From the IMG/VR virus record IMGVR_UViG_3300045988_152627: a stretch of DNA of 46,969 nucleotides, one strand, 5' to 3'. This DNA comes from a virus. Taxonomy: Duplodnaviria > Heunggongvirae > Uroviricota > Caudoviricetes. Position 1 is the first letter of the stretch. The number at the start of each line of letters is the position of its first letter. Shown here one piece after another: positions 5,816 to 42,900 of the stretch. Position numbers and translations under genes: made by a program. A model generated the notes under the pieces. The model was given only the letters and a program-made list of their open reading frames with translations, was not told the DNA's origin and made no database searches.

Positions 5816-8600
5816 AACTTAATCTCCGTTGTTGGAACATATGAGCACTCAATTTCTTCTCAAAATCAGAATATCCCGCATCTAATGCTCTTTTAGCTGC
5901 CGCCTCAGTTTCCTTTGGTGAACCAGCCGGAAGATTGATTACAGGTGAATAGGTTATTCCACCAGTCACAGCGTTAACGTTCTGGCGAGTTCCAGAAGTC
6001 CCGGCGGCAGATATCCCGTGAGGTGATAAATTTGATTGCCCGAACTTGGTTGCTATTGCATTCTGTAAGCTGTTATTCCTGCTAACACCTGATGCCAGAG
6101 TAGTCATTATTGCCCCCCCTGACTTTGTTAGCTGTGTGAATGGACCTTTTTTCGCGTCAGAGAACGGTAAATACTCACGTACAGAAGAAAAAACGCCTTT
6201 CACTTCATTAATTAAAGCATTTGCTTTTGATTTTATCCCAGTGATTAACGTCTCAATTATTTTTGCACCTGACTCACTCCAGTTTATTCCAGATAAATAA
6301 GCCGTTACAGATTGGAATGCTCTTATAAAGAGTCCAACTGGTGAAAAACGCATAAAAACAGACACCAGTGTATCTATGATTTTCTTTCCTGTTTCACTCC
6401 AGTTAATGCCAGAAAGGTAATTTGTTGTAAGTTTAAATGCTTTAATTAAGAACGGAAGCGGAGACATCCATTTAAAAGCACTAATTAATGTACTGTAAAT
6501 TCTTACTCCTGCCGAACTCCAGTTTATGTTGGAAAGATAATCCCATGCTTTACCAAACATAGATATAATCCATCCATTGAGATCAAAGTTTAAGATAAAG
6601 TTTTTTATAGCTTCAAACGATTTAACTGTATATTCCTTAACAGAAGGCCAAACTCTGACAGCATAATCTCTGATCTTATCCCAGTTCTGATAGAGCAATA
6701 TTCCTGCGGCAACCAGCGCAGATATAGCCATCTGAATCCACCCGAAGGGTGTTAGCTTTGTCGCTACAGATAAAGCCAGCATAGCTACCCTACACGCTAT
6801 AACCACACTTTTCATGGTTAGAAACGCACCTGCCGCCATCACAATCTGAGACACAAAATTGGGGTTGTTAGCTACAAATTCACTAATTTTTGTAATCAGC
6901 GGAACCAAAACACTAAGCGCGGCATTCAAAGCAGGTTGCAAGGCCTGACCAAAACTTAATGATGCATTGCTAGCCTGAATACGTAATTGTTTCAATCGCT
7001 CCGCATTGTCTTTCGTTATGTTGGTAAAATCGCGGTCAATAACAGCACTTCCAGCACCAAGAGATGTTGCTTTGATTCTCTGGTATTCCTTCCAGTTTTG
7101 AATCATCGGACGAACAAAGTTCTGAACCTGCATATCGCCAAATAGCTCACCAAGTAACTTCTGATCTCCGTTCTTAGTCATTTTCATGACAGAATGCATT
7201 GCAGCTTCGAATGGATTCTTCCCTTTTTTCTGCGCTGTTGTGACAATTTTATATAAATCTACACCGAAATTTTTCTTTGCTTTTTTTAGTGTTTCAGGGG
7301 AAAGTATTTTCGCCAAAAAGTTGTTCATGTTATTAGCAGCCTCATCCGAAGTTGCAGCACCTTTGCGAGCTATCTGCAAAGCTGCCCCCATCGTCGCGGC
7401 GGCTTCTTTACCTCCCATTTTTAATGCCTGGAACTGGGCACCAAGCACAGGAAGATTTTTGGCCATATCTTTAAATTCAAAGTTTCCCTCTTTCCCTGCC
7501 TGAACCAGAATCCCCATTGCAGACTTCATTTGAGATGGATCAATCTTCAATGAGTCACTTAATGTAAATGATGCTTTCGAGACATCGAGGATATCAGAGC
7601 CAGTAGCTGTAGCTGTTCGCCCAATAGTTAGTAGATTCGCCTGAGCCTCTTTATAATCCTGCCCAGCAGCGACAAGAAAACCCTGAGCGGCCTGAATATC
7701 AGATGCAAACTGGTTGGTGGCCGTTCCGGTAACAAGCATCGCCTGCCCCATCGCCTGAACTTCTTCCGGCTTCATATCTGCCGTAAGACCAATCATTTTG
7801 TTTTCACGATTGAAATTTGCTGCATTGTTAGCAGCAGCAAATGCACCAGCCGCTACAGCACCAGTTTGTAATCCTGACCTTACAAGTTGACTCTTTGCCT
7901 CACCAAGATGCTCTCGCTTCAATTCACGCTGCCTTTCCAACGCGCGGTTTAACTCCTCCTGAGCACGTTTTACTGCAAGAACATTTTTCCGTGCTTCAGC
8001 CAACGCATTTTTATAGCTGTTAATTTTATCAATACGTTGTTTTTCTAATGCCCGGTTAAGTTCCTCCTGCTGTTTTTTCACTTGCTGAACATTTGCTCTG
8101 GCTAAAGCCAAAGCCGTTCTGTAGCGGTTAACCTGCTCAACGCTACGGGCCTGAGCCTCACGATTACGATCAATGCTTGCTTTAAGCTCTTTCTCTCTTG
8201 AGGCTAAAGCTCTGGCAGATGTATCAGCTCCCTGATACGCAGACTTTAAAGCGGCCAGTTCTTCACGCTGAGAACGTAGTGATGCTCGTAAATTTGATGA
8301 ATGTGTTTTTGCCTTCTCAAAGTCACGAAGCATCGCTCTGGTTGGATTGGCCGTGTTTTTTATTTGCTTCTGTAACTCTTCAACGCGAGCAGCAGCTTTA
8401 TGATATTCGAGGGCAGTCTGTCCAACCTTTACTTTTACAGATTGTAGCTTTTGAATTTCCCCATGTTCTTTCGTTAATCCAGCAAGCTCTGCATTTAATT
8501 TAGCAACAGCCTGATTAGCTGTAGTAAAACTTTTGGGGAGAGAGGCGGCAACTTTGCCGCCAATTTCAAAAGCCAGCTTAAAGTTCTTATTGCTGGCCAT
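5808..8600 (-). CDS. Tail tape measure protein
   Basis: 930 aa; N-terminal coiled-coil repeats, central hydrophobic segment; follows the frameshifted chaperone pair. Confidence 0.85.
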   Translation of the reverse strand: MASNKNFKLAFEIGGKVAASLPKSFTTANQAVAKLNAELAGLTKEHGEIQKLQSVKVKVGQTALEYHKAAARVEELQKQIKNTANPTRAMLRDFEKAKTHSSNLRASLRSQREELAALKSAYQGADTSARALASREKELKASIDRNREAQARSVEQVNRYRTALALARANVQQVKKQQEELNRALEKQRIDKINSYKNALAEARKNVLAVKRAQEELNRALERQRELKREHLGEAKSQLVRSGLQTGAVAAGAFAAANNAANFNRENKMIGLTADMKPEEVQAMGQAMLVTGTATNQFASDIQAAQGFLVAAGQDYKEAQANLLTIGRTATATGSDILDVSKASFTLSDSLKIDPSQMKSAMGILVQAGKEGNFEFKDMAKNLPVLGAQFQALKMGGKEAAATMGAALQIARKGAATSDEAANNMNNFLAKILSPETLKKAKKNFGVDLYKIVTTAQKKGKNPFEAAMHSVMKMTKNGDQKLLGELFGDMQVQNFVRPMIQNWKEYQRIKATSLGAGSAVIDRDFTNITKDNAERLKQLRIQASNASLSFGQALQPALNAALSVLVPLITKISEFVANNPNFVSQIVMAAGAFLTMKSVVIACRVAMLALSVATKLTPFGWIQMAISALVAAGILLYQNWDKIRDYAVRVWPSVKEYTVKSFEAIKNFILNFDLNGWIISMFGKAWDYLSNINWSSAGVRIYSTLISAFKWMSPLPFLIKAFKLTTNYLSGINWSETGKKIIDTLVSVFMRFSPVGLFIRAFQSVTAYLSGINWSESGAKIIETLITGIKSKANALINEVKGVFSSVREYLPFSDAKKGPFTQLTKSGGAIMTTLASGVSRNNSLQNAIATKFGQSNLSPHGISAAGTSGTRQNVNAVTGGITYSPVINLPAGSPKETEAAAKRALDAGYSDFEKKLSAHMFQQRRLSFG

Positions 8601-21188: not shown

Positions 21189-22568
21189 CTACTTAATCAA
21201 CGGCCGGAAAGCCGCCAGCACATCATCAGATCGTCCGATTGTTGAACCACCAGGCAACGGCAACTCAAACTCAAAACGAACAGCTTTCTCCAGACTCGCC
21301 CAACTAAGGGAATCATCGTTAATGACGTGCAAATACCAGCTCTTACAGTTGAATATTGACCGCTTAATCCTGAAACCATGTACACGACACAACTGCTTCA
21401 CTTCATCATCAGAGTGAAACTTCTGGTAAAACCAGTGCCCCTTCCGGTACAACGCGGTAAAACCGTTATGATCAATAAAATAAAGCCGGCTTTTGGAACT
21501 CGCCGCTTGTGTTTGCTTCAGGACTGTTTCCAGCTCTCCACGGCTACGACCAGAAAAGAATATTGACCCACCAGCTTTACACAGGCCTTTCAGAACCGTC
21601 AGAACGGACCATTCAGCCTCGACACTATCGACCGAGTTCAAAACGCTATCGCAAATCACGTAGTCGTAACGCCCTCGCGTTTTTAAGTCGTCCACCAGCG
21701 TATCAATCATCCAGTTTGTTGCGGCCCTATCCAGAGTGTTTCCAGCGCCCTTACGGCGGAAAAGCTCGAGATCATGCAGGTTATATCCCTTTGCCCTGAG
21801 CATTCGCGCGTAGTCTCCCTGCCCCGAACCAAAATCAATTCCTCTTGGCGTCTTGGCAATGATCGGGAGGATCAACGACTCATACAGGTTTGATTTCAGG
21901 CTGCCACCATTACGCAACCGCATAAGCTGCGCATACGTCTGGATGTATGTTGTTTTCTCCAGATGAGAATACTCAAATACACCATAAGTTTTATTCAGAT
22001 AACTTTGGTATTTTTCCTTCTCAACATCAGGGATCACAAACACCGTTAGCGGTGTGCGCGTCATCTTCGCTGCTAATGCATACTGAGCACAGTGAATAAC
22101 CTCGCCAGACTGAGTAGCAACACACCCCCCCCACGGACCATACTTGATAACCAGTTCCGCTATGTTCTTTCGAACATATGCCATTTTCGCGCGCATATTG
22201 CCTGAGATCTGGCTTGCCGATACCTGAACAAAACCATGCTTATCTTCCAGACCGGACACCCTGCAACGCTCATCTCCGCTATCAAAATCCGTTCCGTTAT
22301 GCAGTTGGTTAAACCGTACTTCGTCGTATACCGTCGTTTCACAGGGCAACACATACACCGCAGCACGCGTTATTCCCAACTTACGTAGCGCCTTCGTCCT
22401 TTGGTGTCCCGCCACCAGCAAATCGCCGCGCACTATCAATGGCTTCACAAGCCCTAGCTCCCTGACGCTTTCCGCCAGCCTCGCAAGATCATCCTCACCG
22501 ATAAAACGCGGGTTATATTCCGCACCGCGTAGGTGCGTTATGTCGTAATTGAGGTGAAGCATCAGCAC
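21189..22568 (-). CDS. ParB/Srx-like domain fused to a class I SAM-dependent methyltransferase
   Basis: 459 aa; N-terminal LIVRGDLLVAGHQRTKALRKLG (ParB-like); C-terminal IDFGSGQGDYARML (motif I) and DYVICDSVLNSV; no DPPY/NPPY motif seen. Confidence 0.7.
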   Translation of the reverse strand: MLMLHLNYDITHLRGAEYNPRFIGEDDLARLAESVRELGLVKPLIVRGDLLVAGHQRTKALRKLGITRAAVYVLPCETTVYDEVRFNQLHNGTDFDSGDERCRVSGLEDKHGFVQVSASQISGNMRAKMAYVRKNIAELVIKYGPWGGCVATQSGEVIHCAQYALAAKMTRTPLTVFVIPDVEKEKYQSYLNKTYGVFEYSHLEKTTYIQTYAQLMRLRNGGSLKSNLYESLILPIIAKTPRGIDFGSGQGDYARMLRAKGYNLHDLELFRRKGAGNTLDRAATNWMIDTLVDDLKTRGRYDYVICDSVLNSVDSVEAEWSVLTVLKGLCKAGGSIFFSGRSRGELETVLKQTQAASSKSRLYFIDHNGFTALYRKGHWFYQKFHSDDEVKQLCRVHGFRIKRSIFNCKSWYLHVINDDSLSWASLEKAVRFEFELPLPGGSTIGRSDDVLAAFRPLIK

Positions 22569-23185
22569 ACCTCCCCAGCCAGCAATGCGGATACAAATCC
22601 GATATAGCTGCCATTATCATCAACATAACGAGACACCGCGCAGTCAAAACGATCCGCTTCCTCATCCGTTGCCGGGATTTTATGACCTCCAAATGACAGG
22701 TACTGAACTTTTACGCCTGATTTGGCCTCATCCTTCTCAAATGGGATATCCATACCCTCTGTGTCATCGTAGACCGCCGCACTCAATAAGTTATCCAGTT
22801 CGCGCTGAGTAAAACCAATTGAGTCCAGAGCAAAATCATCGGCCGCAAGATCTGCAAGCTCCGCGCTTAACAACTCTTCATCCCAACCAGCATTCAGCGG
22901 AATACGGTTGTCGGCCAGACGATATGCCTTCTTCTGATTCTCCGTTAGCCCTTCCAGAACAATGCAGGGAACATCATCCATCCCCAACTGAGTGGCCGCA
23001 GCAATTCGACCATGACCAGCAATTACAACGTTGTTCTCGTCTATCAGGATCGGATTAGTCCATCCGTACTCCTGTATGCTGGCAACAATCTGATCTACCT
23101 GCTCCACGGAGTGTGTGCGAGCGTTCTTTTCATAACCAATCAACACAGAAAGTGGTAAAGAAACCACATTAAGATGTTTTGTCAT
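22562..23185 (-). CDS. ParB/Srx-like nuclease-domain protein (paralogue of 19306..19896)
   Basis: 207 aa; LIDENNVVIAGHGRIAAATQLG and overall collinear similarity to the 196-aa ParB-like protein. Confidence 0.75.
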   Translation of the reverse strand: MTKHLNVVSLPLSVLIGYEKNARTHSVEQVDQIVASIQEYGWTNPILIDENNVVIAGHGRIAAATQLGMDDVPCIVLEGLTENQKKAYRLADNRIPLNAGWDEELLSAELADLAADDFALDSIGFTQRELDNLLSAAVYDDTEGMDIPFEKDEAKSGVKVQYLSFGGHKIPATDEEADRFDCAVSRYVDDNGSYIGFVSALLAGEVC

Positions 23186-23420
23186 GCCGTTTATCCGCTA
23201 AAATCCCCTCGCTTGTGCAAGCAAGTGGGCCTCGGTTTGTATCCACGGCACCCTGTGGGTATGAATGACTGTCGTCAGGTCGCAACTGACGGCGGTCGCC
23301 CACCTTCCAGTAATAAAAAAGCCACCAGCATTAACTCCACAGCGAGCTGGAGTTAATGAGGCAGCTTTGGTTTGCGCATTATCGCAGTCCCTGGTAAGCA
23401 CAAGAGCTGCTGTAATGCTA

Positions 23421-23450
23421 AAAAAACAAAACCACCCGCAGGTGGTTTTA
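23421..23450. terminator. Bidirectional rho-independent terminator
   Basis: Hairpin AACCACC-CGCA-GGTGGTT flanked by an A-run upstream and a T-run downstream; ends the minus-strand operon 25081->23478. Confidence 0.6.
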
Positions 23451-23477
23451 TAAATAAATAGCAAACAGGTATCTGCA

Positions 23478-23921
23478 CTAATCAGATAAACCAAACTTCT
23501 TCTTTGCCAATGACTTGAGAAGTTCTACACCAACATCCTTCATAACAGCCAATGGCTCATTGCTAATTTCTTTTAGTCTAGCGAAAACATCTTTGCTCTC
23601 TAGTGCACAGGCAAAATCCTGTCCCTCTGTAGTCAATCTAATATCTACATCAACAGTCCTCATTCCTGCAAAGGAATTAACATAGCCAAGACGCAGAGGA
23701 TCACGCGTTTCCATCTTCATATTGCTGATAAAACCTTGCTCAATCAATTGCATATAATGAAACATGCCCTTTTCTGAGGCTATATCAAACCCCGCATCTC
23801 TTAGTTGATTTACTGTTATGAACGTGCTTTCTGAATCCAAAAACACAGTCAGCATCTTTTTTAGATAATCTAGATCGGTGCGCATTTTACCCTCCTTAAA
23901 TGGAACGCAAATGTTACACAA
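23478..23921 (-). CDS. Hypothetical protein
   Basis: 147 aa (possibly starting at the internal Met); last gene of the four-gene accessory operon. Confidence 0.4.
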   Translation of the reverse strand: MCNICVPFKEGKMRTDLDYLKKMLTVFLDSESTFITVNQLRDAGFDIASEKGMFHYMQLIEQGFISNMKMETRDPLRLGYVNSFAGMRTVDVDIRLTTEGQDFACALESKDVFARLKEISNEPLAVMKDVGVELLKSLAKKKFGLSD

Positions 23922-24120
23922 CCTTTAAAAAAGACACATTGTTTTATTTATGCCTCATTTTAATCGACCAATTACTGCCTAAATTTATCAATCAATAATT
24001 GCTCCCGCTTACGCCGAAAAGCTCTCTGCGCCACTAAGATGCGCCACAGAACACCAGCGATAACCACCAGCGAGATACAAAAACACACGGCCACAACCAT
24101 CAGAAAAATGCCAACACCAT

Positions 24121-24327
24121 TCATGAAACTATCCATTCTTCAATGAATATCTCCAGTAATGTCAAGAGATACGCCATCCCCAGCGCGGTTCCTACCGATA
24201 TAGCTAAGACAAACCTCAAAGATAACGAGGTGTCTTTCGCTTTTCTCCAGACGTAAGCGCCAGCCAGAAATACCAACAAATCTCTTATTGGAAGCGGAAA
24301 CCAGAACAAATCACTCGGCAAGTCCAC
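24121..24327 (-). CDS. Small membrane protein
   Basis: 68 aa with two hydrophobic helices. Confidence 0.35.
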   Translation of the reverse strand: MDLPSDLFWFPLPIRDLLVFLAGAYVWRKAKDTSLSLRFVLAISVGTALGMAYLLTLLEIFIEEWIVS

Positions 24328-24329
24328 GG

Positions 24330-24785
24330 TTATATCCTTCCATTCATTTTTATCGGATGACCAGATAGCCTTACGCAGTTGAGCTGTAAAGCTCCGGTAT
24401 CAACTAACTGATCAACTAACATGATTAGAGCTTCATATTCAGACTGATAGCTAACCTGACGCATTCGACCGCCGTTGTTCTCCAGAATGTCGGCCACCTT
24501 TGCAGCCAACTCGCTTAGACAGGAGAACTTATTCCCATATATCGTTTTATACTCGCGCTTCTGGCATTCTTCGGCTTGCGGCTGGTTATCGAGAGCTATC
24601 AGCGACCGATGGCTATCAAGGAAGTCCACAATCTCATTCAGGCACTCTTTGGCTGCCTCATCGTGACTTTTTCCGTATGCTTCATGGAGGACTTTCATCC
24701 TCATCATTGCTCCGTCACACATAATCGAAAGCGCGTAAAGCACATCACTAATCGCCATTTCTTTTTTGGTGCTTGTCGAAGGCAT
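24330..24785 (-). CDS. Hypothetical protein
   Basis: 151 aa ORF with RBS; no recognisable motif. Confidence 0.4.
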   Translation of the reverse strand: MPSTSTKKEMAISDVLYALSIMCDGAMMRMKVLHEAYGKSHDEAAKECLNEIVDFLDSHRSLIALDNQPQAEECQKREYKTIYGNKFSCLSELAAKVADILENNGGRMRQVSYQSEYEALIMLVDQLVDTGALQLNCVRLSGHPIKMNGRI

Positions 24786-24810
24786 CCCATGTTCTCCTTT
24801 GTCTGGATGT

Positions 24811-24836
24811 AAAAAAGCCCCGGCAATTGCCGAGGC
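24811..24836 (-). terminator. Candidate intra-operon terminator or attenuator
   Basis: Minus-strand hairpin GCCTCGGC-AATT-GCCGGGGC followed by TTTTTT, between the 73-aa and 151-aa genes. Confidence 0.45.
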
Positions 24837-24859
24837 TCGTTGTTCGTTATCGTTACGGT

Positions 24860-25081
24860 TTAATGCTCGCGTCGTCCGGCGACAACTTCGGATTTGTATT
24901 TCAGGTCGCCCAGCAAGAATTGCAGCTTAAGCATCTTTGCCGCCGTGTAGTTCCCTGATTCCACAACCTCTTTCATGAGGTCATAAACGGCCGCTACATC
25001 ATCAGCCAGGAACTCTTTGCGTTGCTGATCAGTCGCACGTTTGAAGGAAATACGCATTACTTTACGGTCTTGTTCTTTCAT
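24860..25081 (-). CDS. Hypothetical small protein
   Basis: 73 aa; start codon sits exactly at the end of promoter-leader cassette copy 1. Confidence 0.4.
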   Translation of the reverse strand: MKEQDRKVMRISFKRATDQQRKEFLADDVAAVYDLMKEVVESGNYTAAKMLKLQFLLGDLKYKSEVVAGRREH

Positions 25082-25200
25082 CGGGTTATCTCCGGTTTAA
25101 CCAGGGCGGGTATCGCTCGGTTTCGGGTATAACATTAGGAAATTTTTTCCCACCTGTAAAGTACTTTTTATATAATTATATAATTATATAATTCTATGAC
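25082..25200 (-). promoter_or_regulatory. Promoter-leader cassette copy 1 (TTTACA-N17-TAATGT, about 50-nt leader, RBS GGAGAT)
   Basis: Minus-strand -35 at 25155..25160 and -10 at 25132..25137; near-identical to 32154..32275 and 42784..42900; (TATATAAT)x3 upstream of the -35. Confidence 0.6.
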
Positions 25201-25781
25201 ACTTGCCAGAGAGCATCATGCAACTGGATACCTCCATTGCACTGGTTGCCCCAGCCATGCCAGCCATCAGGTAAATCACCGCGAGCAAACAACTCAATAC
25301 GAGGAACATCGCCTAACAGCTTTACCAGCTTGTCACGGACCACATCAGGCTTCCGAGAATGCTCCAGACGAGGCGATGTAAACGACTGAATAATCCCCGC
25401 ATCAAGGCGGGTTGGCAGTTTGCCTTTTACCGCAAACAAGCAATCTTCACTGTTTGCACGAGTCATATGCCCCATCCCCATCACCAGCTTATCTGGTTGT
25501 CGGCTACCACATTTGTTCCATGTGAAGCCCTTCATGGTCATAAGCCTGAATCCCCATGCTTTCACCACCAGCAACGCTTCTTCTGGCTGAGTCGGAACCC
25601 ACCACATGGCCAACAAACACGATTCAGGATTAGCAAGCTGCCAGACAGGAATACGAGCAATCTCCTCAGCTTTCATCGTTGGATACTTAAAACCAGCGCC
25701 ACGATTCCCATCCTTACACTTGTCTTTGTATTCCCAGGGGGGATCTGCATAAATCAGATTAAACAATGCAATTGCCTCCAT
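25194..25781 (-). CDS. DNA N6-adenine methyltransferase, MT-A70 family
   Basis: 195 aa with the N-terminal DPPW motif (LIYADPPWEY). Confidence 0.75.
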   Translation of the reverse strand: MEAIALFNLIYADPPWEYKDKCKDGNRGAGFKYPTMKAEEIARIPVWQLANPESCLLAMWWVPTQPEEALLVVKAWGFRLMTMKGFTWNKCGSRQPDKLVMGMGHMTRANSEDCLFAVKGKLPTRLDAGIIQSFTSPRLEHSRKPDVVRDKLVKLLGDVPRIELFARGDLPDGWHGWGNQCNGGIQLHDALWQVS

Positions 25782-26159: not shown

Positions 26160-26329
26160 CATATTTGATCTGTTTGTCTGGTGTGGCGCCGCGCACGAAA
26201 ATCCCAGCCAATAAATTCAGGATTTTTGGGCGCGGCGGCATATCAGACAAACATGGTTGATGCGTGCGCCCATGAGAAAAGCGCATAGAATGTTGTAACT
26301 ATATATTTATATAATTATAGAAATATATA

Positions 26330-26539
26330 TTACTTTCGGCAGTTGATTTCCCATGCCCTGTTATGAGCCAGAATATCTTTCTTTGTCTGGCGGTCCATAA
26401 CATCGATGTCGTGATCAGTCAGGTAGATGGGCTTTACCCAATCACAGGCGGTATCAACCACCACCGGGACGCTTCCACGACTCCCGCAGCTCGCGATCAA
26501 CATCGTCATCAGCCATATGGTTAACACTCTGCTGTACAT
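26330..26539 (-). CDS. o-spanin (Rz1-like lipoprotein)
   Basis: 69 aa with signal peptide and lipobox LIASC; partly nested in the 3' end of the Rz-like gene in another frame. Confidence 0.55.
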   Translation of the reverse strand: MYSRVLTIWLMTMLIASCGSRGSVPVVVDTACDWVKPIYLTDHDIDVMDRQTKKDILAHNRAWEINCRK

Positions 26540-27949: not shown

Positions 27950-27980
27950 AAAAAAAAAGCCCCGCCGAAAAAGGCAGGGC
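27950..27980 (-). terminator. Rho-independent terminator just upstream of the holin start (tR'-like position)
   Basis: Minus-strand hairpin GCCCTGCC-TTTTTC-GGCGGGGC followed by a 9-T run, then RBS GAGGA and the holin ATG. Confidence 0.6.
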
Positions 27981-28126
27981 TTTACAAAGCAACAAATTAC
28001 GCGGTAATCGCTTAACGCAGTTTTACTACGTTAAATGAAACGTTACACCCAGTTACCACCTAAAACAAGGCTTTTCCATAAAAAAACCTTCACATCGTGG
28101 TTAATCGATCAATAAAAAAGCAATGT

Positions 28127-30730: not shown

Positions 30731-31029
30731 GCCACAGCCCCTCTCAACGGCTTAACTTTGGCTAATAAGGTGTTAAACAACATGGAGTTAGGATTCATGC
30801 CAAATGGCAATTCCGGTTTAGCGGAGTAGTACAGGCAACCATTTATTTTCCTGGTTGTTATCTGTCCTTCGGCAACCATGCTTCTCAGTCTGCAACGCAT
30901 AGAGTTCTGCGACACACCAATGTGCTCCGCGATTACGTCCACTTTTGAACATGGGTGATCGGTCAGGAAATTAATCACATCTTGGGGGTTAATAATTTTG
31001 CGTTTCATTGTCGAGGCGTCCTTATACAT
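30727..31029 (-). CDS. Hypothetical DNA-binding protein (winged-helix-like)
   Basis: 100 aa; central segment IAEHIGVSQNSMRCRLRSMVAEGQI resembles a winged HTH. Confidence 0.4.
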   Translation of the reverse strand: MYKDASTMKRKIINPQDVINFLTDHPCSKVDVIAEHIGVSQNSMRCRLRSMVAEGQITTRKINGCLYYSAKPELPFGMNPNSMLFNTLLAKVKPLRGAVA

Positions 31030-31085
31030 TTATATAAATATATAATTCTATATACGGCGGGAGACATCCCGCCGTAGGCTTACTG

Positions 31086-32153
31086 TCAGGCTTTCAATAG
31101 CGATTCTTTCAGATATCGGGCATCAGCCAGGGCGTTTGGAGTAATCTTGCGAACCCATGCATTACGGGTTGGACTCCACTTAAAGGCGCGTGATTTAAGC
31201 AGCGAACGAATGTTTGCCTCTGGTTTGCCAGGGAAATAAAACAGGATGCGGTTATCCTCTGGATCTATCTCCATAGAAAAGCCGTCGTATTCTTCGCGCT
31301 GTGCTCCTGTTACAGACTTGACCGATTCAAGCTCCTTAATACGGCTCTGTAGTCGTTTGATTTCGGCGTTATTGTTGCTCAGTGCGTATGAAGGGAATCC
31401 GATGCGCCCACAGAAATCTCCGGCCAGTAACTCTTTGGCTTCGCTTTCTGTAAACCTGAGATCGATTAATGCAGAAAGCTGCTGTAATTGGTCTTTTTTG
31501 TATTTGCGAATGGCCTTATTTGCGGCCTTCATTTTGACGTGTGACTTCATGCAGCCTTGCAGCTTACGAAGCAACTTAAATAGCGCATCAGGATCATCAG
31601 ACGAAATTCCATTACGACCAACACCTGCGGCTTTGCTCTCGTAGTGTGATGCTTTACTTTCGCATTCAACAAACGTTTTTCTGAATAACGCATCAGCTTT
31701 AGACAAACGGCGGCGATGGCCTTTCGCGCTATAATGGTCAACTAAAATCGGCTGGCCTAACGGGATCACATCCAACAGGTCATGCGCTCGCTTATGCGCT
31801 ACCGCACCTTCTTTTCTGGCTTTTTCTGCACGAGCAATATATCGGGCAAGACGCGCGTTCTGGCGTTCCTGATAGGTGTTTACGTAATCATCTCCGCGCT
31901 GCTGCTGTTCAAGCCATGCTTTGCGCAGATCTTCTGTTACGTCCACCAGCTCCGCAGGGATACAACCAGTTTGGGCTTCATAAGAGTAACCATCCTCATA
32001 GATACGCCCATCGTCTTCAACAAAGAAAAAGGTTTCGTGCTCATCGCTTTTGACCATACGACCATTAACATGGCGTAATAGGTAGCCAGTATCAGTGCTT
32101 AACAGGCTGTTAGGGTTGTTGATCCAGTCAGAAATAATTACTTGTTTATTCAT
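31086..32153 (-). CDS. Hypothetical protein (DUF3560-like?)
   Basis: 355 aa; first gene after promoter-leader cassette copy 2; family assignment by recall only. Confidence 0.4.
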   Translation of the reverse strand: MNKQVIISDWINNPNSLLSTDTGYLLRHVNGRMVKSDEHETFFFVEDDGRIYEDGYSYEAQTGCIPAELVDVTEDLRKAWLEQQQRGDDYVNTYQERQNARLARYIARAEKARKEGAVAHKRAHDLLDVIPLGQPILVDHYSAKGHRRRLSKADALFRKTFVECESKASHYESKAAGVGRNGISSDDPDALFKLLRKLQGCMKSHVKMKAANKAIRKYKKDQLQQLSALIDLRFTESEAKELLAGDFCGRIGFPSYALSNNNAEIKRLQSRIKELESVKSVTGAQREEYDGFSMEIDPEDNRILFYFPGKPEANIRSLLKSRAFKWSPTRNAWVRKITPNALADARYLKESLLKA

Positions 32154-32275
32154 CAGATTTCTCCGGTTTAACCAGGGCGGGTATCGCTCGGTTTCGGTTA
32201 TAACCTTAGGAAATTTTTTCCCACCTGTAAAGCACTTTTTATATAAATCTATAATTATATATTTATAGATTTTCG
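32154..32275 (-). promoter_or_regulatory. Promoter-leader cassette copy 2, directly downstream of the Q-like gene
   Basis: Same sequence as copies 1 and 3 with a few substitutions (TAAGGT at the -10 position); TATAAATCTATAATTATATA motif upstream. Confidence 0.55.
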
Positions 32276-34847: not shown

Positions 34848-35504
34848 ATGAAAAGCAACGACGAGAACATCAAGAAAGAAATAGGTCTGCGCATTCAGAC
34901 TCTACGGAAACAATCCGGCATGACTGCCGGAGATCTCCAGCAAGTCACTGGAATAGGCTTAAGCACCTTGCAGAACTATGAGGCCGGATTAAGACAACCA
35001 TCTATACCTGCCATCAAGAAAATCGCGCACGCCCTGAAAGCATCAGCGCCTTATATCGCGTGCTTAACAGATAACCCGTTCCCACCCCAGAATACTAACG
35101 CTCCTGTTATTCCTGGGCTTGTAGCTATAAAAAATGACATAGCATCGCACGCCGGAGAAAAGCCAGTGCTGGCGATAGAACAGGAGATTCTACGAAGCAA
35201 GAACATCAACCCATCGTCTCTGTCAGTTCTCCAGAGCAACGATGAGTTAATGTCACCAACAATATCCCCAGGCTCCCAAGTCCTGATTAATACAGACGAT
35301 ACAGAGATTCATGAGGGGATCTATGCCCTTGAAGACAGAAATGGCCTGGTTGTTTTGAGGCACTGTAGAGTCATACCGGGTGACAATGCTGTTATGCTGT
35401 CAACCGAAAGGGATGCTGAAATGAACACTAATCATCTGAATAACGAGGAATTTAAGCGTTATAAAGTTCTTGGCCGCGTAGTTAGTGTTGTCAACTGGTT
35501 ATGA
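34848..35504 (+). CDS. CI-like repressor (XRE HTH + S24/LexA-like C-terminal domain)
   Basis: 218 aa; HTH TAGDLQQVTGIGLSTLQNYEAG; C-terminal LexA/UmuD-like layout ending KVLGRVVSVVNWL. Confidence 0.8.
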   Translation: MKSNDENIKKEIGLRIQTLRKQSGMTAGDLQQVTGIGLSTLQNYEAGLRQPSIPAIKKIAHALKASAPYIACLTDNPFPPQNTNAPVIPGLVAIKNDIASHAGEKPVLAIEQEILRSKNINPSSLSVLQSNDELMSPTISPGSQVLINTDDTEIHEGIYALEDRNGLVVLRHCRVIPGDNAVMLSTERDAEMNTNHLNNEEFKRYKVLGRVVSVVNWL

Positions 35505-35971: not shown

Positions 35972-36106
35972 CTGAAAGCGGGCTAACGCCCGCTTATATG
36001 ATTATAGATTTATATAATTATATAAAACGCTTTTCATCCGCCAAAAAGTTGGTTATGCTTACCTCGTTCTATAAATATAGATTTATAGAATTATATAACC
36101 AAACAC

Positions 36107-36775
36107 ATGGAGTCTCGACAAATGACTATCTCTGTAGGTATTTTCAACGGAAAAGGCGGCGTAACCAAATCAACAATTGCCCGTGCTTTAGCAGTTGCTT
36201 ATGCAAAGGCCGGCTGGAATGTATGCCTGATCGATATGGATGTGCTTAACGGAACGGTAACGCGTTGGGTACAACGCAGAATGGCCAACAATATCGAACC
36301 TGCAATCGCGGCGCAGCCGTGCGGCACGCCATCACAAGTCCAGAAAATCATCGAATCAGAAGTATACGACCTGGTTATCGTTGATGGCGGTGCCTACGCA
36401 TCTGAATCAGTACCGAAGCTCTCTGAATTTCTGGATATGGTTATTTTGCCAACCAGATTCTCTACCGATGACCTAGAAACCACCGTTAACACAGCTCACG
36501 GCATCGTTAAAAAGGGTGTACCAATCAAGAAAATTTGCATGGTGTTTTCCGGCGCGGCTGAAAACGAAGCTGACTATATTGAAGCCCAAGAGTACCTGGC
36601 TAATACGCCATACTTTGTTGTCGATAAGTACATTCCCCACAAGCCAGCTCTGAGCAAAGCTCAGGATAAGGGCTTAAGCCTCATTGAGTGCTCATACGTT
36701 GCGCCACGCAAAAAGGCAGACGACGTTATTCAGGGGATTATCAACCAGCTTGAGGCTCTGACTACTGCCGCGTAA
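36107..36775 (+). CDS. parA: ParA-family partition ATPase (small, type Ib)
   Basis: 222 aa with deviant Walker A NGKGGVTKST and later VIVDGGA motif. Confidence 0.85.
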   Translation: MESRQMTISVGIFNGKGGVTKSTIARALAVAYAKAGWNVCLIDMDVLNGTVTRWVQRRMANNIEPAIAAQPCGTPSQVQKIIESEVYDLVIVDGGAYASESVPKLSEFLDMVILPTRFSTDDLETTVNTAHGIVKKGVPIKKICMVFSGAAENEADYIEAQEYLANTPYFVVDKYIPHKPALSKAQDKGLSLIECSYVAPRKKADDVIQGIINQLEALTTAA

Positions 36776-36818
36776 TATATAATTATAGTTTTATAGATTT
36801 ATATAAGATGGGATACAC

Positions 36819-37067
36819 ATGGCCGCACCATCAAAACCACCAAAGAAGAACAGCAAAGGCGTACCGCCATCGATCGAACAACCGCAGGTTTTCGACCCGA
36901 CTGAAACGCCAACCAGAACCAAATCAGGTGGGGCACAAATGGCGTTTAACGTCGACCCTGAATTTAAACGCGAGTACAAAACGTTCGCCAGCTCAATGGA
37001 TATGTCATTGAAAGAAGTGCTGACAAAATCTTTTGAGTTACTCAAGGCTCAATACAACCAGAAGTAA
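36819..37067 (+). CDS. ParG-like ribbon-helix-helix centromere-binding protein
   Basis: 82 aa; Pro/Lys-rich tail then RHH-like MAFNVDPEFKREYKTFASSMDMSLKEVL; directly downstream of parA. Confidence 0.6.
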   Translation: MAAPSKPPKKNSKGVPPSIEQPQVFDPTETPTRTKSGGAQMAFNVDPEFKREYKTFASSMDMSLKEVLTKSFELLKAQYNQK

Positions 37068-37279: not shown

Positions 37280-37295
37280 ATTCAACCATAAAAAA

Positions 37296-37311
37296 GGCCC
37301 CCGAAGGGGCC
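37296..37311. terminator. Bidirectional terminator hairpin GGCCCCCGAAGGGGCC
   Basis: Perfect GC-rich hairpin flanked by an A-run upstream and T-rich sequence on the opposite strand. Confidence 0.55.
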
Positions 37312-37877
37312 TAATCGCTACTTGCTGCTAATGTTTATCGTCACATTCAGAGCGTTATCAGTAATCTTCCAACCCTCCCCATGTGGCGTAAACAAAGCCC
37401 CAGTAACAACGATAAAAATACACATACAGTATTTTTTCATTGTATGGCCCTTACAGGCCGTTTCACGGCATCCCCACCGACGAAAACAACGCGAGAGCAA
37501 GCACGGCTGCTTGTGCTTGCATGTACGGCAACAGGAAATCCTCCCCTAAAGTCGGTGCCCGGGTGCGAATCGGCGGGAAGGTCCACAGGTATTTTACGAT
37601 TATTTTAAGATTAGTAATAGGAAATAAATTAAACGAAAAAACCAGTTTATTTTCACAAAATCAGTAACCTACCCACAATCTGTGAGTTTGCAGACACAAC
37701 AAGAACCACAATTTTTTGAAGCATAATAGTGGACTATTATTACCTTTTGGGTAAAATCAACTTGCTGCTTGTGCTTGCGTGGTTGTTTATACAACAACGT
37801 AATGCTGAAAGGACCGCGAATCCGATCAGCACGAAAGAACCGTCCTCAATAGGGCGGTTTTTTTGTTTCTTCACTCA

Positions 37878-38569: not shown

Positions 38570-38864
38570 TGTCTCTGTTAAAATCCCGCCGTATTGACAT
38601 GAATGCGCCATTGGTGGACACTTTCCGAGCCGTAGCAAAATCTACGGTCGGGATTAGCCTCCTGAATAACACGATGGCGCATACCGCGTTAGCGGTTTTT
38701 TTATGCGTAGAGCACTGTTACGCCCAAATTATGGTGGGTCGTACAGGGGCGGAGAAATCCGCGCCGGTTCGTCATTGTGTCCGGTAAGGCTAACCCTGTA
38801 CGGCTCACCACCATTTGATTAGCCTCGAATGGCGGTGATAGTTCCATATATTGGAGATATCACA

Positions 38865-39056
38865 ATGACAAACTTACCCCATGACTATTACGTCAACCTC
38901 GTAAAGATCCTTCTCAAGAAAGCCTCATACGCCGATAAATTCCGCCTGGCTGAAATAATCGAGCGCGAAGCTATGCGCATCGCCAGCAACGATAACGCTG
39001 TTTCTGACGCAAAAATCTCCCTCGTAACCAAAGTAGTTATGGGAGGTGCAAAATGA
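38865..39056 (+). CDS. Hypothetical small protein, coupled to the antirepressor
   Basis: 63 aa from ATG 38865 (RBS GGAGAT); stop overlaps the antirepressor start. Confidence 0.35.
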   Translation: MTNLPHDYYVNLVKILLKKASYADKFRLAEIIEREAMRIASNDNAVSDAKISLVTKVVMGGAK

Positions 39057-40195
39057 AAACGCTTCCGACCGTTAACACCCTACAGCCTATCCTGCATAAC
39101 CAGATCCCCGTTATCACCACGGAGCTGCTTGCCAAACTATATGGCTGTAGCGTCGAATGTCTTCACAGAAATCACCACCGTAATAAGTCCCGGTTTACAG
39201 AAGGAAAACATTTCATAGTTGTAAAAGGTACAGATCTCCAAAGTTTGAAAATCTCTTTAAGAGATTTTCAAACCATCGCGAATAACGTTAGAAAGCTCAT
39301 CCTCTGGACCGAACGCGGGGCTGCACGTCACGCTAAAATGCTCGAAACCGATCAGGCATGGGATGTATTCGAACGGCTGGAAGACTGCTACTTCAACCAG
39401 AACGCGCAAACGGCCGCGACCGTAACCGTCTCACCAAACAATGCTCGTGAGGTTGTCGATACGCTCAACGCTAAACCAATGTATTACGTTAAGGTGTGCA
39501 ACAACGAGCCACTCACAACCTCAGCCGATGTTGCCCAAGCATTCAGCACCACAAACAATTCCATCGTTATGGCCATCGATGCGTTACGTATTCCTCGCAC
39601 AGCTGCGGCGCGTCACTTCTTTAAAGAACAACGACCGCTGGAAGGAAGCGACCGCGAAATAACAATCTATCGCATGACAAAAGACGGATTTACCTTGCTC
39701 ATGGAAAGTATCGACGGTCCAGGCGTGAAGGATATCAAGCTGGCCTACATTGAAGCCTTTAACGCTATCAGCAGCGTGTTAAAGGCAGAATACGAGCGAA
39801 TGCTATACAACCGACTGTATCAGGAAACAAAGATTATCCGAACGGCAACAGAACATCATCGGCTATTAACGGAACCAAACTACCGCAAGACACTAATCAA
39901 AGAATTTGACAAGGCGACGGAGAAAACTAAAGCGGCACTAAATCTACCAACAATGACTAAAGATGATGTGATATCAGCCTTACTTCTTGATCTGCTCAGA
40001 AACGCCAGAGCACTTATCAGTTTTGACGAAAACCTGAATCCTCAGCTCAAGCTACTACCACCGACAGGCAAAGTAGTCGACCAAGCAGATCACAACAGCA
40101 TACTCAGCGTACTGGATGCAAACCTGCCAGCCAGGACACTACAGGAGCTGATAAAAATATCTGCGGATAAACTGGCCGCAGGTGCAAAACCATAA
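39053..40195 (+). CDS. Phage antirepressor (KilA-N/ORF6N-like N-terminus plus Rha-like domain)
   Basis: 380 aa; N-terminal ITTELLAKLYGCS...KHFIVVKGTDL and central TSADVAQAFSTTNNSIVMAIDAL resembling the Rha motif. Confidence 0.65.
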   Translation: MKTLPTVNTLQPILHNQIPVITTELLAKLYGCSVECLHRNHHRNKSRFTEGKHFIVVKGTDLQSLKISLRDFQTIANNVRKLILWTERGAARHAKMLETDQAWDVFERLEDCYFNQNAQTAATVTVSPNNAREVVDTLNAKPMYYVKVCNNEPLTTSADVAQAFSTTNNSIVMAIDALRIPRTAAARHFFKEQRPLEGSDREITIYRMTKDGFTLLMESIDGPGVKDIKLAYIEAFNAISSVLKAEYERMLYNRLYQETKIIRTATEHHRLLTEPNYRKTLIKEFDKATEKTKAALNLPTMTKDDVISALLLDLLRNARALISFDENLNPQLKLLPPTGKVVDQADHNSILSVLDANLPARTLQELIKISADKLAAGAKP

Positions 40196-42783: not shown

Positions 42784-42900
42784 CGGGTTATCTCCGGTTT
42801 AACCAGGGCGGGTATCGCTCGGTTTCGGGTATAACATTAGGAAATTTTTTCCCACCTGTAAAGCACTTTTATATAAATCTATAATTATATAATTCTATGA
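42784..42900 (-). promoter_or_regulatory. Promoter-leader cassette copy 3 (TTTACA-N17-TAATGT)
   Basis: Minus-strand -35 at 42857..42862 and -10 at 42834..42839; about 88 bp identical to copy 1 from the ATG up to the -35. Confidence 0.6.

What the first reader, a model, noticed from the sequence alone, without database searches (positions are those of the whole stretch)
23421..25200. Four-gene accessory operon with its own promoter copy, internal attenuator and terminator
Promoter cassette copy 1 drives genes for 73-aa, 151-aa, 68-aa (two TM helices) and 147-aa proteins, none of which I recognise. A hairpin plus T-run after the first gene (24811..24836) and a strong terminator at the end (23421..23450) make this a self-contained moron between the methylase and ParB genes. 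A small membrane protein with cytosolic partners fits the look of a defence, anti-defence or exclusion module.
Basis: inference. Interest (0 to 1): 0.55.

Follow-up and report, generated by a model that had tools for sequence, protein, structure and literature searches.

The report
Mosaic accessory operon of a phage-plasmid
Five (not four) small genes of unknown function, with their own promoter and several terminators, sit between the lysis and DNA-packaging genes of a ~48-kb E. coli phage-plasmid; the stretch is a fast-evolving, patchwork accessory region of a familiar kind, not a recognisable defence system.

Summary
The features are real, but the gene list needs correcting. There are five genes on the minus strand:
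- orfA, 73 aa, an in-frame deletion-fusion.
- orfB, 151 aa.
- orfC, 68 aa.
- orfD, 135 aa rather than 147.

The promoter cassette, the hairpin after orfA and the end terminator are all there. A second terminator follows at 23310-23368.

The window is a ~48-kb phage-plasmid found in 72 of 5,426 complete E. coli genomes. The locus is syntenic across the family but is not one unit.
- orfA-orfC2 are backbone genes that diverge much faster than their flanks (34-49% versus 75-93% aa identity). They suffer frequent deletions, including in plaque-forming phages.
- orfD is a separately acquired, low-GC, winged-helix gene. Its homologues usually sit alone between the lysis and terminase genes of unrelated lambdoid prophages.
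- orfD replaces an SH3-like gene that most family members carry.

No protein matches any known defence, lysis or structural family.

The promoter carries an 8-bp tandem-repeat operator shared with the parA promoter and six other sites. My best guess is a non-essential host-interaction module acting at the membrane (exclusion type). Function is unproven. It is a new member of a known kind, of moderate-low interest.

The parts
25167..25198 (-). Four tandem 8-bp repeats (TATAKAWW) ending 8 nt upstream of the -35. Operator-like. The methylase stop codon lies inside the first repeat.
   Evidence: 29 matches to the 22-nt repeat pattern in the window against 0 expected, in 8 clusters. The same repeats flank the parA promoter.
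25089..25196 (-). Promoter+leader cassette, copy 1. -35 TTTACA at 25160-25155, 17-nt spacer, -10 TAATGT at 25137-25132, conserved ~50-nt 5' leader, SD GGAG at 25093-25090, ATG at 25081.
   Evidence: The leader folds at -13 kcal/mol, z -3.4. In distant relative L016 the layout is TTTACA-17-TATGGT. Three copies per element in about 65 plasmids.
24860..25081 (-). orfA, 73 aa. An in-frame fusion of the first 8 codons of an 89-aa gene to the conserved 66-aa 'A-core' gene (PHROG 6621). Predicted to be a small soluble helical protein.
   Evidence: A-core pN/pS is 0.09 among close alleles. It is 41% identical in L016.
24809..24838 (-). Intrinsic terminator/attenuator between orfA and orfB (10-bp stem, 7 GC, U6). 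It is followed directly by the orfB SD.
   Evidence: Nearly invariant in L007 and L016 although the flanking genes are diverged.
24330..24785 (-). orfB, 151 aa, all-helical and cytosolic (PHROG 14707). It has an N-domain (residues 1-63) plus a C-core, but lacks the C-terminal tail found in longer family members.
   Evidence: Homologues occur almost only in this phage-plasmid family and range from 81 to 323 aa. The one detected exception is a C-core-only protein, P0044, in a lambdoid-type contig. The AF2 model is poor, pLDDT 51. pN/pS is 0.68.
24121..24327 (-). orfC, 68 aa, a small membrane protein with a GTG start 2 nt after the orfB stop. It has one clear TM helix plus a short hydrophobic segment. 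Not annotated in RefSeq relatives.
   Evidence: A 67-aa homologue at 42% identity is present in L015. Absent from L016 and L025.
23972..24136 (-). orfC2, 54 aa (50 aa from the RefSeq start), with an N-terminal TM helix and a basic cytoplasmic tail. It overlaps orfC by 16 nt.
   Evidence: It is 34-44% identical in L015 and L016. Only weak sub-threshold similarity to CcmD.
23926..23963 (-). Weak hairpin plus U-run in the 86-nt AT-rich spacer (31% GC) between orfC2 and orfD. This spacer is the mosaic junction.
   Evidence: (-7.7 kcal/mol, z -1.7). L016 has a strong terminator at the equivalent place.
23478..23885 (-). orfD, 135 aa. A winged-helix domain plus a conserved C-terminal amphipathic helix (PHROG 585; DUF2513 below threshold). 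A separately acquired moron.
23419..23451 (-). Intrinsic terminator 1 (11-bp stem plus T7), belonging to the orfD cassette.
   Evidence: Absent from L016, which lacks orfD. orfD homologues elsewhere each carry their own terminator.
23310..23368 (-). Terminator 2, the family-wide end of the locus (long hairpin plus T6). It is followed by about 120 nt of conserved non-coding DNA before the ParB-like gene.
   Evidence: Also matched in phage vB_EcoM-613R2.
32160..32267 (-). Promoter+leader cassette, copy 2. It heads the DUF3560 operon, which ends at a strong terminator (27983-27956) just before the holin gene.
42791..42898 (-). Promoter+leader cassette, copy 3. It heads a 126-aa gene plus a 90-aa HTH gene and is preceded by a terminator (42931-42909).

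Best explanation
SHOWN (about 0.8 confidence): the locus is a string of small accessory-gene cassettes at the lysis-to-packaging junction of a ~48-kb temperate myovirus that is maintained as a plasmid. It consists of three units.
1. A sigma-70-type promoter with a tandem 8-bp-repeat operator and a conserved leader (one of three copies) drives orfA.
2. A strong intrinsic terminator then throttles transcription into orfB-orfC-orfC2. These three genes are translationally coupled and encode a cytosolic helical protein plus two tiny inner-membrane proteins.
3. A separately imported winged-helix gene, orfD, has its own ribosome-binding site and terminator.
A second terminator insulates the ParB/terminase genes. 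Units 1 and 2 are family backbone but evolve several times faster than their flanks and tolerate deletions. Unit 3 is a swap for an SH3-like gene.

INFERRED (about 0.3): orfB-orfC-orfC2 form a membrane-anchored complex that changes how the carrier cell deals with incoming phage or related phage-plasmids. This would be superinfection exclusion or entry blocking, in the manner of T4 Imm/Sp or HK97 gp15. The complex would be made at a low level by read-through of the attenuator in the plasmid state, and at a high level when late transcription reads through. orfA, made in excess, would be a soluble partner or regulator. orfD would be an independent nucleic-acid-binding accessory protein.
For: Architecture:
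- ORFs, SDs, the 2-nt and 16-nt gene junctions, and the hairpins.
- The cassette is triplicated, and this is conserved in about 65 plasmids.
- The operator repeats are shared with the parA promoter, which has the same repeat/-35/17 nt/-10 layout. This argues for activity in the plasmid state.
- The operon ends in two terminators before the packaging genes, and the cassette-2 operon ends in a terminator directly before the holin ATG. This fits transcription at a time when late genes must stay off.

Three units:
- Allele mosaics differ at each slot.
- L007 is recombinant at the conserved hairpin.
- orfD differs in GC and in its contexts elsewhere.

Fast evolution:
- Window versus L016/L015: MT-A70 75%, ParB 81%, ParB-methyltransferase 91% and TerL 93%, but orfA 41%, orfB 48-49% (C-half only), orfC 42% and orfC2 34-44%.
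- orfB length ranges from 81 to 323 aa.
- pN/pS is 0.68 for orfB and 0.57 for orfC, against 0.08 for the methylase.

Dispensability:
- The plaque-forming Yersinia phages vB_YpM_39, 41 and 44 carry different alleles. vB_YpM_39 has the 99-aa orfB that lacks the C-core.
- orfC is absent from L016 and L025, and orfC2 is deleted in L020.

Membrane location: hydropathy of orfC and orfC2.
Against: - No protein has detectable similarity to any known exclusion, defence, anti-defence, holin or spanin family, so the functional part rests on analogy only.
- pN/pS near 0.6-0.7, truncated orfB forms and frequent deletions fit relaxed constraint or decay as well as they fit an arms race.
- The strong terminator after orfA (two in L007 and L016, four in the L016 locus) means orfB-orfC2 may be hardly expressed from the cassette promoter. 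They may be expressed mainly late in lytic growth, which would not suit a lysogen-protecting role.
- Promoter activity, operator function and terminator efficiency are all predictions from consensus.
- The orfB model is low-confidence, so no structural support exists for a complex.
Confidence: 0.4

Rival explanations
1. Entry-burst (establishment or anti-defence) genes. The three promoter cassettes would be repressed by a plasmid-encoded repeat-binding protein (an omega/ParG/KorB-like partition protein). They would therefore fire strongly only just after the DNA enters a naive cell, before the repressor accumulates. orfA and orfB, and the DUF3560 operon under cassette 2, would counter host defences or help establishment.
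For: - The same 8-bp repeats lie at the parA promoter, between parA and an 82-aa ORF with an RHH-like C-half, and upstream of all three cassettes.
- Cassette 2 drives a DUF3560 gene. From my own knowledge, DUF3560 genes are common in plasmid leading regions.
- orfB shows rapid divergence and length plasticity.
- orfA lies upstream of the attenuator, so it would be the dominant product.
Against: - The repeat-binding protein is not identified. The 82-aa ORF has no Pfam, NCBIfam or PDB match.
- The two membrane proteins are not typical of anti-defence proteins.
- No similarity to any known anti-defence family was seen, although no dedicated anti-defence library was available.
Confidence: 0.2
2. 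Late lytic accessory genes. The locus would be transcribed mainly as part of the late transcript that starts upstream of the holin gene and reads through all terminators. orfB, orfC and orfC2 would tune lysis timing (antiholin-like) or assist packaging.
For: - The locus lies inside the late gene block, between the lysis cassette and the ParB/terminase genes.
- The holin ATG is directly preceded by a strong terminator, which suggests that late expression needs antitermination able to read through the locus's own terminators.
- An orfB C-core homologue and the SH3-like gene sit between the lysis genes and the terminase genes in an unrelated lambdoid-type contig. In phiP27 the SH3-like gene sits alone, just before HNH, cos and terS.
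- Small membrane proteins next to holins are often lysis regulators (own knowledge).
Against: - No holin, antiholin or spanin family was matched, and a complete lysis cassette already exists upstream.
- No antiterminator was recognised.
- The locus has its own promoter, shared with plasmid-maintenance genes.
- Parts are missing in viable phages.
Confidence: 0.15
3. RexAB-like abortive infection or another new defence system. orfB would sense an infecting phage, and orfC/orfC2 would depolarise the membrane.
For: - A cytosolic protein is translationally coupled to small membrane proteins.
- The element is a prophage.
- The locus evolves fast.
Against: - PADLOC found nothing above noise. The best hit was PtuB, E 0.014, 12.8 bits.
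- The family is confined to one phage-plasmid lineage rather than spread among defence islands.
- orfC and orfB C-core loss is common.
Confidence: 0.1
4. Largely decaying, near-neutral filler. These would be remnants of once longer genes that persist because they sit between recombination-prone conserved linkers (cassette, hairpin, terminators).
For: - orfA is a deletion fusion.
- The window's orfB lacks the family's C-terminal tail, and the common 99-aa allele lacks the C-core.
- pN/pS is 0.57-0.68 for orfB and orfC.
- There are many indel variants.
Against: - The reading frames stay open, and the order and coupling are kept down to about 35-45% identity across genera.
- A-core is under strong purifying selection, pN/pS 0.09.
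- SDs are intact.
Confidence: 0.1

Closest known systems
Lambdoid-phage 'morons': accessory genes with their own promoter and terminator embedded in late operons (e.g. lambda bor/lom, HK97 gp15). Concept cited from my own knowledge of Juhala/Hendrix.
   Same: - The locus is embedded in the late region between lysis and packaging.
- It has a promoter-like element upstream and terminators downstream.
- Its content differs between near-identical genomes.
- orfD has deviant GC, and its homologues usually sit alone at the same junction in unrelated lambdoid prophages.
   Different: - orfA-orfC2 are not insertions present in only some genomes. They are syntenic in all family members.
- The promoter is one of three copies of a family-wide cassette.
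- Several internal terminators subdivide the locus.
Small membrane superinfection-exclusion proteins (T4 Imm and Sp, HK97 gp15); own knowledge.
   Same: - orfC and orfC2 are tiny (50-70 aa) proteins with one or two TM segments.
- They are encoded by a temperate phage, are non-essential, and evolve fast.
   Different: - No sequence or profile similarity.
- They are coupled to a cytosolic partner, orfB.
- No phenotype is known.
Global regulons run by plasmid partition or repressor proteins that bind tandem short repeats (omega of pSM19035, ParG of TP228, KorB of RK2); own knowledge.
   Same: - Tandem short repeats lie directly upstream of the -35 of several dispersed promoters, including the parA promoter.
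- A small ORF after parA has a disordered basic N-tail and an RHH-like C-half.
   Different: - The repeat unit is 8 bp (TATAKAWW), not the 7-bp heptads of omega.
- The binding protein is unidentified.
- The host element is a phage.
DUF2513 (PF10711) / PHROG 585 winged-helix proteins
   Same: - orfD matches PHROG 585 at E 9e-26 over its full length.
- RefSeq names its 99%-identical relative DUF2513.
- The winged-helix fold is confirmed by a confident model.
   Different: - The Pfam score of 19.4 bits is below the gathering score of 29.6.
- This subfamily has an extra, highly conserved C-terminal helix, 'KDVGVELLKSYAKKKFGL'.
- The function of the family is itself unknown. The only paper found in the library merely mentions it.
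phiP27 L33 / PHROG 1935 (SH3-like small protein)
   Same: It occupies the last slot of this locus in most family members, and the same lysis-to-terminase junction in Stx2e phage phiP27.
   Different: - It is absent from this window, where orfD replaces it.
- Its function is unknown.

Membership tests
Moron (accessory transcription unit within a phage late operon) | The gene is present in some, and absent from other, closely related genomes at the same position. | tested here: met
   - orfD is present in about 6-7 of 60-72 family members, and the others carry an SH3-like gene there.
- The 89-aa first gene is present in, or deleted from, different members.
- The feature is NOT met for A-core, the orfB N-domain and orfC2, which are near-universal.
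Moron (accessory transcription unit within a phage late operon) | Its own promoter upstream and its own terminator downstream. | tested here: met
   - Consensus-level only. The cassette promoter is TTTACA-17-TAATGT, or TATGGT in L016.
- The terminators are at 23451-23426 and 23368-23310.
- orfD has its own SD and terminator but no convincing promoter of its own.
Moron (accessory transcription unit within a phage late operon) | Base composition differs from that of the neighbours. | tested here: met
   - Met for orfD: 39% GC (GC3 37%) against 48-50% in the flanking genes.
- Not met for orfA-orfC2: 44-48% GC, GC3 50-53%.
Moron (accessory transcription unit within a phage late operon) | Expressed from the repressed prophage. 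| not testable with these tools
   This needs transcript data from a lysogen. E. coli ATCC 25922 carries a family member, NZ_CP009073.1.
Known anti-phage defence systems (PADLOC-DB v2) | A significant match of at least one protein to a defence-system model. | tested here: not met
   Four proteins had no hit. orfB had only PtuB at E 0.014, 12.8 bits.
DUF2513 (Pfam PF10711) | A score at or above the Pfam gathering threshold. | tested here: not met
   - orfD scores 19.4 bits against a cut-off of 29.6 (E 0.0014), although the match covers profile positions 3-96 of 100.
- The fold is winged helix.
- It is probably a divergent relative.
PHROG 585 / 6621 / 14707 (phage protein families of unknown function) | A full-length, significant profile match. 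| tested here: met
   orfD matches 585 at 9e-26, orfA matches 6621 at 2e-48, and orfB matches 14707 at 2e-103. orfC matched no family, and orfC2 only a weak one (phrog_14698, E 0.023).
Holin / antiholin / spanin lysis proteins | A match to a holin or spanin family, or a lipobox / characteristic topology next to the endolysin. | tested here: not met
   - No Pfam, PHROG or NCBIfam lysis family was hit for orfC or orfC2.
- Holins, the endolysin and a downstream small ORF (i-spanin position) are annotated upstream; a lipoprotein-like o-spanin-type ORF (26330-26539) was read there only.
Winged-helix DNA-binding proteins (MarR/PadR/TubR/F93-like fold) | A three-helix bundle plus a beta-hairpin wing. 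| tested here: met
   - The orfD model has pLDDT 94.
- This shows the fold only. DNA binding was not tested.

The most novel reading that the evidence does not exclude
The three promoter cassettes and the parA promoter would form one regulon, controlled by a partition-linked repeat-binding protein. That would be an omega/KorB-style global regulator in a tailed phage. Under its control, orfB-orfC-orfC2 would be a previously undescribed membrane-anchored exclusion or abortive-infection system, with orfA as its regulator.
Probability: 0.12. Interest if true: 0.6.

Novelty: new member of a known kind. Interest (0 to 1): 0.3.

Why it matters
This phage-plasmid family is common. It occurs in 72 of 5,426 complete E. 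coli genomes, including the reference strain ATCC 25922, and also in E. albertii, E. fergusonii, Salmonella, Citrobacter and Klebsiella. Members have been isolated as plaque-forming Yersinia phages.

The lysis-to-packaging junction is the family's most plastic spot, which makes it a natural place to look for genes that mediate phage-phage or phage-host conflict. If the membrane module excludes related elements, it would help explain incompatibility and turnover among these plasmids.

The shared repeat operator would link plasmid partition to expression of accessory genes. As it stands, though, the locus is one more set of unknown-function phage accessory genes, with no evidence for a new mechanism.

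Tried and rejected
1. Known-family searches of all five proteins gave only unknown-function PHROGs and sub-threshold noise. I searched Pfam, PADLOC, PHROGs and NCBIfam. The PDB sequence search covered orfB and orfD only.
2. An exhaustive HMMER search of orfB against 1.8 billion representatives, and a profile search with distant members, found almost only the same phage-plasmid family. The exception was one C-core-only homologue in a lambdoid-type contig; one further hit, P0043, looked spurious (a repetitive protein).
3. The AF2 model of orfB has pLDDT 51, so it was not used for fold search.
4. I suspected that the orfB C-core is a winged helix related to orfD, because of the 'LIDxLVDAGxL' versus 'LIEQGFIS' motifs. 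hhalign gave probability 0.2%, and a PDB profile search found nothing, so I dropped the idea.
5. Fold search of orfD against viral models returned only generic or uncharacterised hits. The afdb50 library was unavailable.
6. I tested whether the C4, isrK or ryfA RNAs of the element pair with the conserved cassette leader. Duplex energies were within, or only marginally beyond, those of shuffles, so this is not convincing.
7. Rfam scans of the locus, and of the 260-bp insert in relatives, gave only sub-threshold terminator-like hits.
8. There are no paralogues of the five proteins elsewhere in the window.
9. An A-core profile scan of IMG/VR found only the same family.
10. I checked whether the element belongs to the pSLy3 or SSU5 phage-plasmid groups, or is related to phage HQ103. 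It does not and is not.
11. No Q-type antiterminator was recognised among the cassette-2 operon proteins.
12. The 82-aa post-parA ORF has no PDB match.
Full report
**What the window is.** The 2-kb query matches about 60 non-mobilizable plasmids of 46-52 kb from Escherichia (plus Salmonella and Klebsiella). It also matches three plaque-forming Yersinia phages, vB_YpM_39, 41 and 44. A search of complete E. coli genomes finds the element in 72 of 5,426, almost always on a plasmid and including strain ATCC 25922. The best relative, pZ0117EC0148-4, is 99.7% identical. Its annotation shows RepA, ParA, a RelE/ParE toxin-antitoxin pair, an invertase with tail-fibre genes, a contractile tail, a lambda-type terminase/portal/protease head module, and a lysis cassette. 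Rfam finds a P1-type C4 antisense RNA, isrK, ryfA and a tRNA-Met. The window is therefore a temperate myovirus maintained as a plasmid. The finding lies on the minus strand, between an MT-A70 methylase (25194-25781) and the first of three ParB-like genes (22562-23185) that precede the terminase.

**Checking the observation.**
- The 73-, 151- and 68-aa ORFs, the hairpin plus T-run after the first gene, and the terminal terminator are all present. The hairpins fold far better than shuffled sequence: -19.4 kcal/mol (z -3.6) and -23.1 kcal/mol (z -5.1).
- The 'promoter cassette' is a 108-nt direct repeat with three copies. It runs from tandem TATA-type repeats through TTTACA-17 nt-TAATGT and a conserved leader to GGAG and the ATG. 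Homology stops just after the start codon.
- A fifth gene, orfC2 (23972-24136), overlaps orfC by 16 nt and encodes a strongly hydrophobic helix plus a basic tail. RefSeq annotates it in the relative, while it does not annotate orfC.
- The last gene starts at the ATG behind AGGAGG and is 135 aa, like nearly all its full-length homologues.
- The 73-aa gene is a precise 245-bp in-frame deletion that joins codon 8 of an 89-aa gene to a 66-aa gene, which I call A-core.
- A second strong terminator-like hairpin follows at 23368-23310.

**The locus is syntenic across the family but is not one unit.** I compared seven close relatives, seven IMG/VR contigs and two distant relatives: L015, and L016 from a 45-kb contig. 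The common plan is:

methylase | cassette | variable first gene (86-97 aa, or deleted) | A-core (64-66 aa) | conserved hairpin | orfB (81-323 aa) | orfC (sometimes absent) | orfC2 | last gene | terminator | ParB

.
- In most members the last gene is an SH3-like protein (PHROG 1935). Only about 6-7 records carry orfD instead.
- Each slot varies independently. L007, for example, combines an L016-type A-core with a window-type orfB, and the junction falls at the hairpin.
- That hairpin is conserved almost base for base, although the neighbouring genes are only 35-50% identical.
- The conserved non-coding pieces (cassette, hairpin, terminators) thus behave as linkers between exchangeable modules.

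**orfA to orfC2: backbone genes that evolve fast.**
- Between the window and L016/L015, the flanking proteins are 75% (methylase), 81% (ParB), 91% (ParB-methyltransferase) and 93% (TerL) identical.
- By contrast orfA is 41%, orfB 48-49% over its C-half only, orfC 42% and orfC2 34-44%.
- Among close alleles, pN/pS is 0.09 for A-core and 0.08 for the methylase, but 0.68 for orfB and 0.57 for orfC. The counts are small.
- orfB has almost no homologues outside this phage-plasmid family, even in an exhaustive HMMER scan of 1.8 billion representatives. The one exception is a C-core-only protein in a lambdoid-type contig, described below.
- The family protein is modular: an N-terminal helical hairpin, optional middle modules, a C-core ('YKTPYGHKFS...LIDMLVDAGVL') and a tail ('AITVNSPAITV...'). 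The window's allele lacks the tail, and the common 99-aa allele lacks the C-core.
- Its AF2 model is poor (pLDDT 51), so I did not use it.
- orfB, orfC and orfC2 are translationally coupled, with a 2-nt gap and then a 16-nt overlap.
- Natural variants show that much of the locus is dispensable. The plaque-forming phage vB_YpM_39 has the 99-aa orfB. L016 and L025 lack orfC. L020 has lost orfC2.

**orfD: a separately acquired winged-helix moron.**
- orfD has 39% GC (GC3 37%), against 44-50% around it.
- Its homologues (49-81% identity, nearly all 135 aa) occur in Citrobacter, Edwardsiella, Pantoea, Pectobacterium, Serratia, Hafnia and E. coli chromosomes.
- In four of the five proteins I looked up, the gene sits alone, about 50-125 nt after the Rz/spanin gene and before the terminase genes of lambdoid prophages. 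The fifth lies in a prophage accessory region near an Abi_2 gene.
- DNA homology is confined to the coding region, and each copy has its own terminator. This explains why the window has two terminators while L016 has one.
- The most conserved part is an extra C-terminal helix.
- Pfam DUF2513 is matched only below threshold, while PHROG 585 is matched at 9e-26. The library of papers holds nothing functional on DUF2513.

**Links to other phages.**
- A C-core-only homologue of orfB, P0044 (94 aa), lies in a lambdoid-type contig between the lysis genes and the terminase. It is immediately followed by a homologue of the SH3-like gene.
- The SH3-like gene alone is L33 of the Stx2e phage phiP27, between the lysis genes and HNH/cos/terS.
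- The lysis-to-packaging junction of enterobacterial temperate phages therefore exchanges a shared pool of small genes.

**Regulation (inference from sequence).**
- The cassette's TATA-type repeats are 3-4 tandem 8-bp units (TATAKAWW). A 22-nt pattern has 29 matches in the window against 0 expected, in eight clusters.
- Three clusters sit just upstream of the -35 of the three cassettes. Two flank the parA promoter, which has the same repeat/-35/17 nt/-10 layout. One lies between parA and an 82-aa ORF with a disordered basic N-tail and an RHH-like C-half. One lies upstream of the tRNA-Met, and one lies after the DUF3560 gene.
- This resembles regulons run by partition or repressor proteins such as omega, ParG or KorB (own knowledge). 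The binding protein is not identified.
- The cassette-2 operon ends at a strong terminator that directly abuts the holin ATG, and the studied locus ends in two terminators before the packaging genes.
- I infer two things. The cassette operons are transcribed when late genes must be silent. Late transcription needs antitermination, which would also read through this locus. No antiterminator was recognised.
- Because of the strong terminator after orfA, the cassette promoter alone probably yields much orfA and little orfB-orfC2. There are two such terminators in L007 and L016, and four in the L016 locus.

**What it most likely does.**
- None of the five proteins matches a known defence, anti-defence, lysis, structural or metabolic family.
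- The combination of features is the usual signature of phage genes that act on other phages or on the host envelope: a late-region position, its own promoter and terminators, tiny membrane proteins coupled to a cytosolic partner, divergence several-fold faster than the flanks, and dispensability for plaque formation.
- I therefore favour, at about 0.3, a membrane-level exclusion role for orfB-orfC-orfC2, with orfA as a soluble partner or regulator and orfD as an unrelated nucleic-acid-binding accessory protein.
- The rivals are entry-burst establishment or anti-defence genes (0.2), late lysis or packaging accessories (0.15), a Rex-like abortive system (0.1) and near-neutral decay (0.1).
- Only the architecture is shown. 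Every functional statement is inference.

**Verdict.**
- It is a new member of a known kind, the accessory cassettes at the lysis-packaging junction of temperate phages.
- Interest is moderate-low. The shared 8-bp-repeat operator linking parA to three accessory operons is the most interesting by-product.

Noticed in passing
window 25167-25198, 26296-26331, 31019-31056, 32238-32269, 35991-36026, 36068-36099, 36772-36807, 42868-42899: Eight clusters of 3-4 tandem 8-bp repeats (TATAKAWW); 29 pattern matches against 0 expected. Three sit just upstream of the three promoter cassettes, two flank the parA promoter, and one lies between parA and an 82-aa ORF. This looks like one regulon, or a set of centromere-like sites, bound by a single repeat-binding protein in the omega/ParG/KorB style.
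   Followed up: partly
window 36819-37067 (+): An 82-aa ORF just after parA has a disordered basic N-terminal half and an RHH-like C-half ('QMAFNVDPEFKREYKTFASSMDMSLKEVLTKSFELLK'). It is a candidate type-Ib centromere-binding protein or repressor. It matches only PHROG 6024, with no Pfam, NCBIfam or PDB match.
   Followed up: partly
window 27956-27983 (-) and holin start 27936: A strong intrinsic terminator (11-bp stem, T9) ends about 20 nt before the holin ATG, like lambda tR'. This suggests that late genes need antitermination. No Q-like protein was recognised among the upstream genes.
   Followed up: partly
L007 (NZ_CP103765.1) and L016 (GCA_048236455.1, locus 5664-5948); absent from the window at about 24840-24860: A non-coding insert of about 260 bp lies between A-core and the conserved hairpin. 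It has its own terminator plus about 230 nt. It is nearly identical in two relatives whose flanking genes are only 35-50% identical. It may be an sRNA or a regulatory element. Rfam found nothing significant.
   Followed up: partly
window 23186-23309 (-): About 120 nt of non-coding sequence between the second terminator and the ParB-like gene is well conserved even in the distant relative L016, and in phage vB_EcoM-613R2. It contains an imperfect palindrome (CTTGCTTGCACAAGCGAG) and no sigma-70 consensus. It may be a late-promoter or activator site.
   Followed up: no
window 38629-38815 (+), 39053-40195 (+), 37290-37586 (-): A P1-type immunity I arrangement (isrK-like RNA, C4 antisense RNA, then an ORF6N/KilAC antirepressor-like gene), plus a ryfA-like RNA. 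This sits alongside a separate lambda-type cI-like repressor (HTH_3 plus an S24-like domain, 34848-35504) that is divergent from the lytic genes.
   Followed up: no
L026 (Logan ERR13998665 contig) 7001-7708; phiP27 NC_003356.1 20985-21332: The SH3-like gene (PHROG 1935, = phiP27 L33) and an orfB C-core-only gene occur as a pair between the lysis genes and the terminase in an unrelated lambdoid-type phage. In phiP27, L33 sits alone just before HNH/cos/terS. They look like a recurrent gene pair of unknown function at the packaging junction.
   Followed up: partly
window 31086-32153 (-): Promoter cassette copy 2 drives a DUF3560 protein (355 aa), followed by about nine small genes (Ead/Ea22-like and ASCH-like among them). 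This may be an establishment or anti-defence style operon.
   Followed up: no
NZ_CP098182.1 5077-9649 (L008): The nearest relative carries a Tn5403-family Tn3-like transposon next to the tail-fibre invertase region. This accounts for its larger size (52 kb). The insertion is not present in the window.
   Followed up: no
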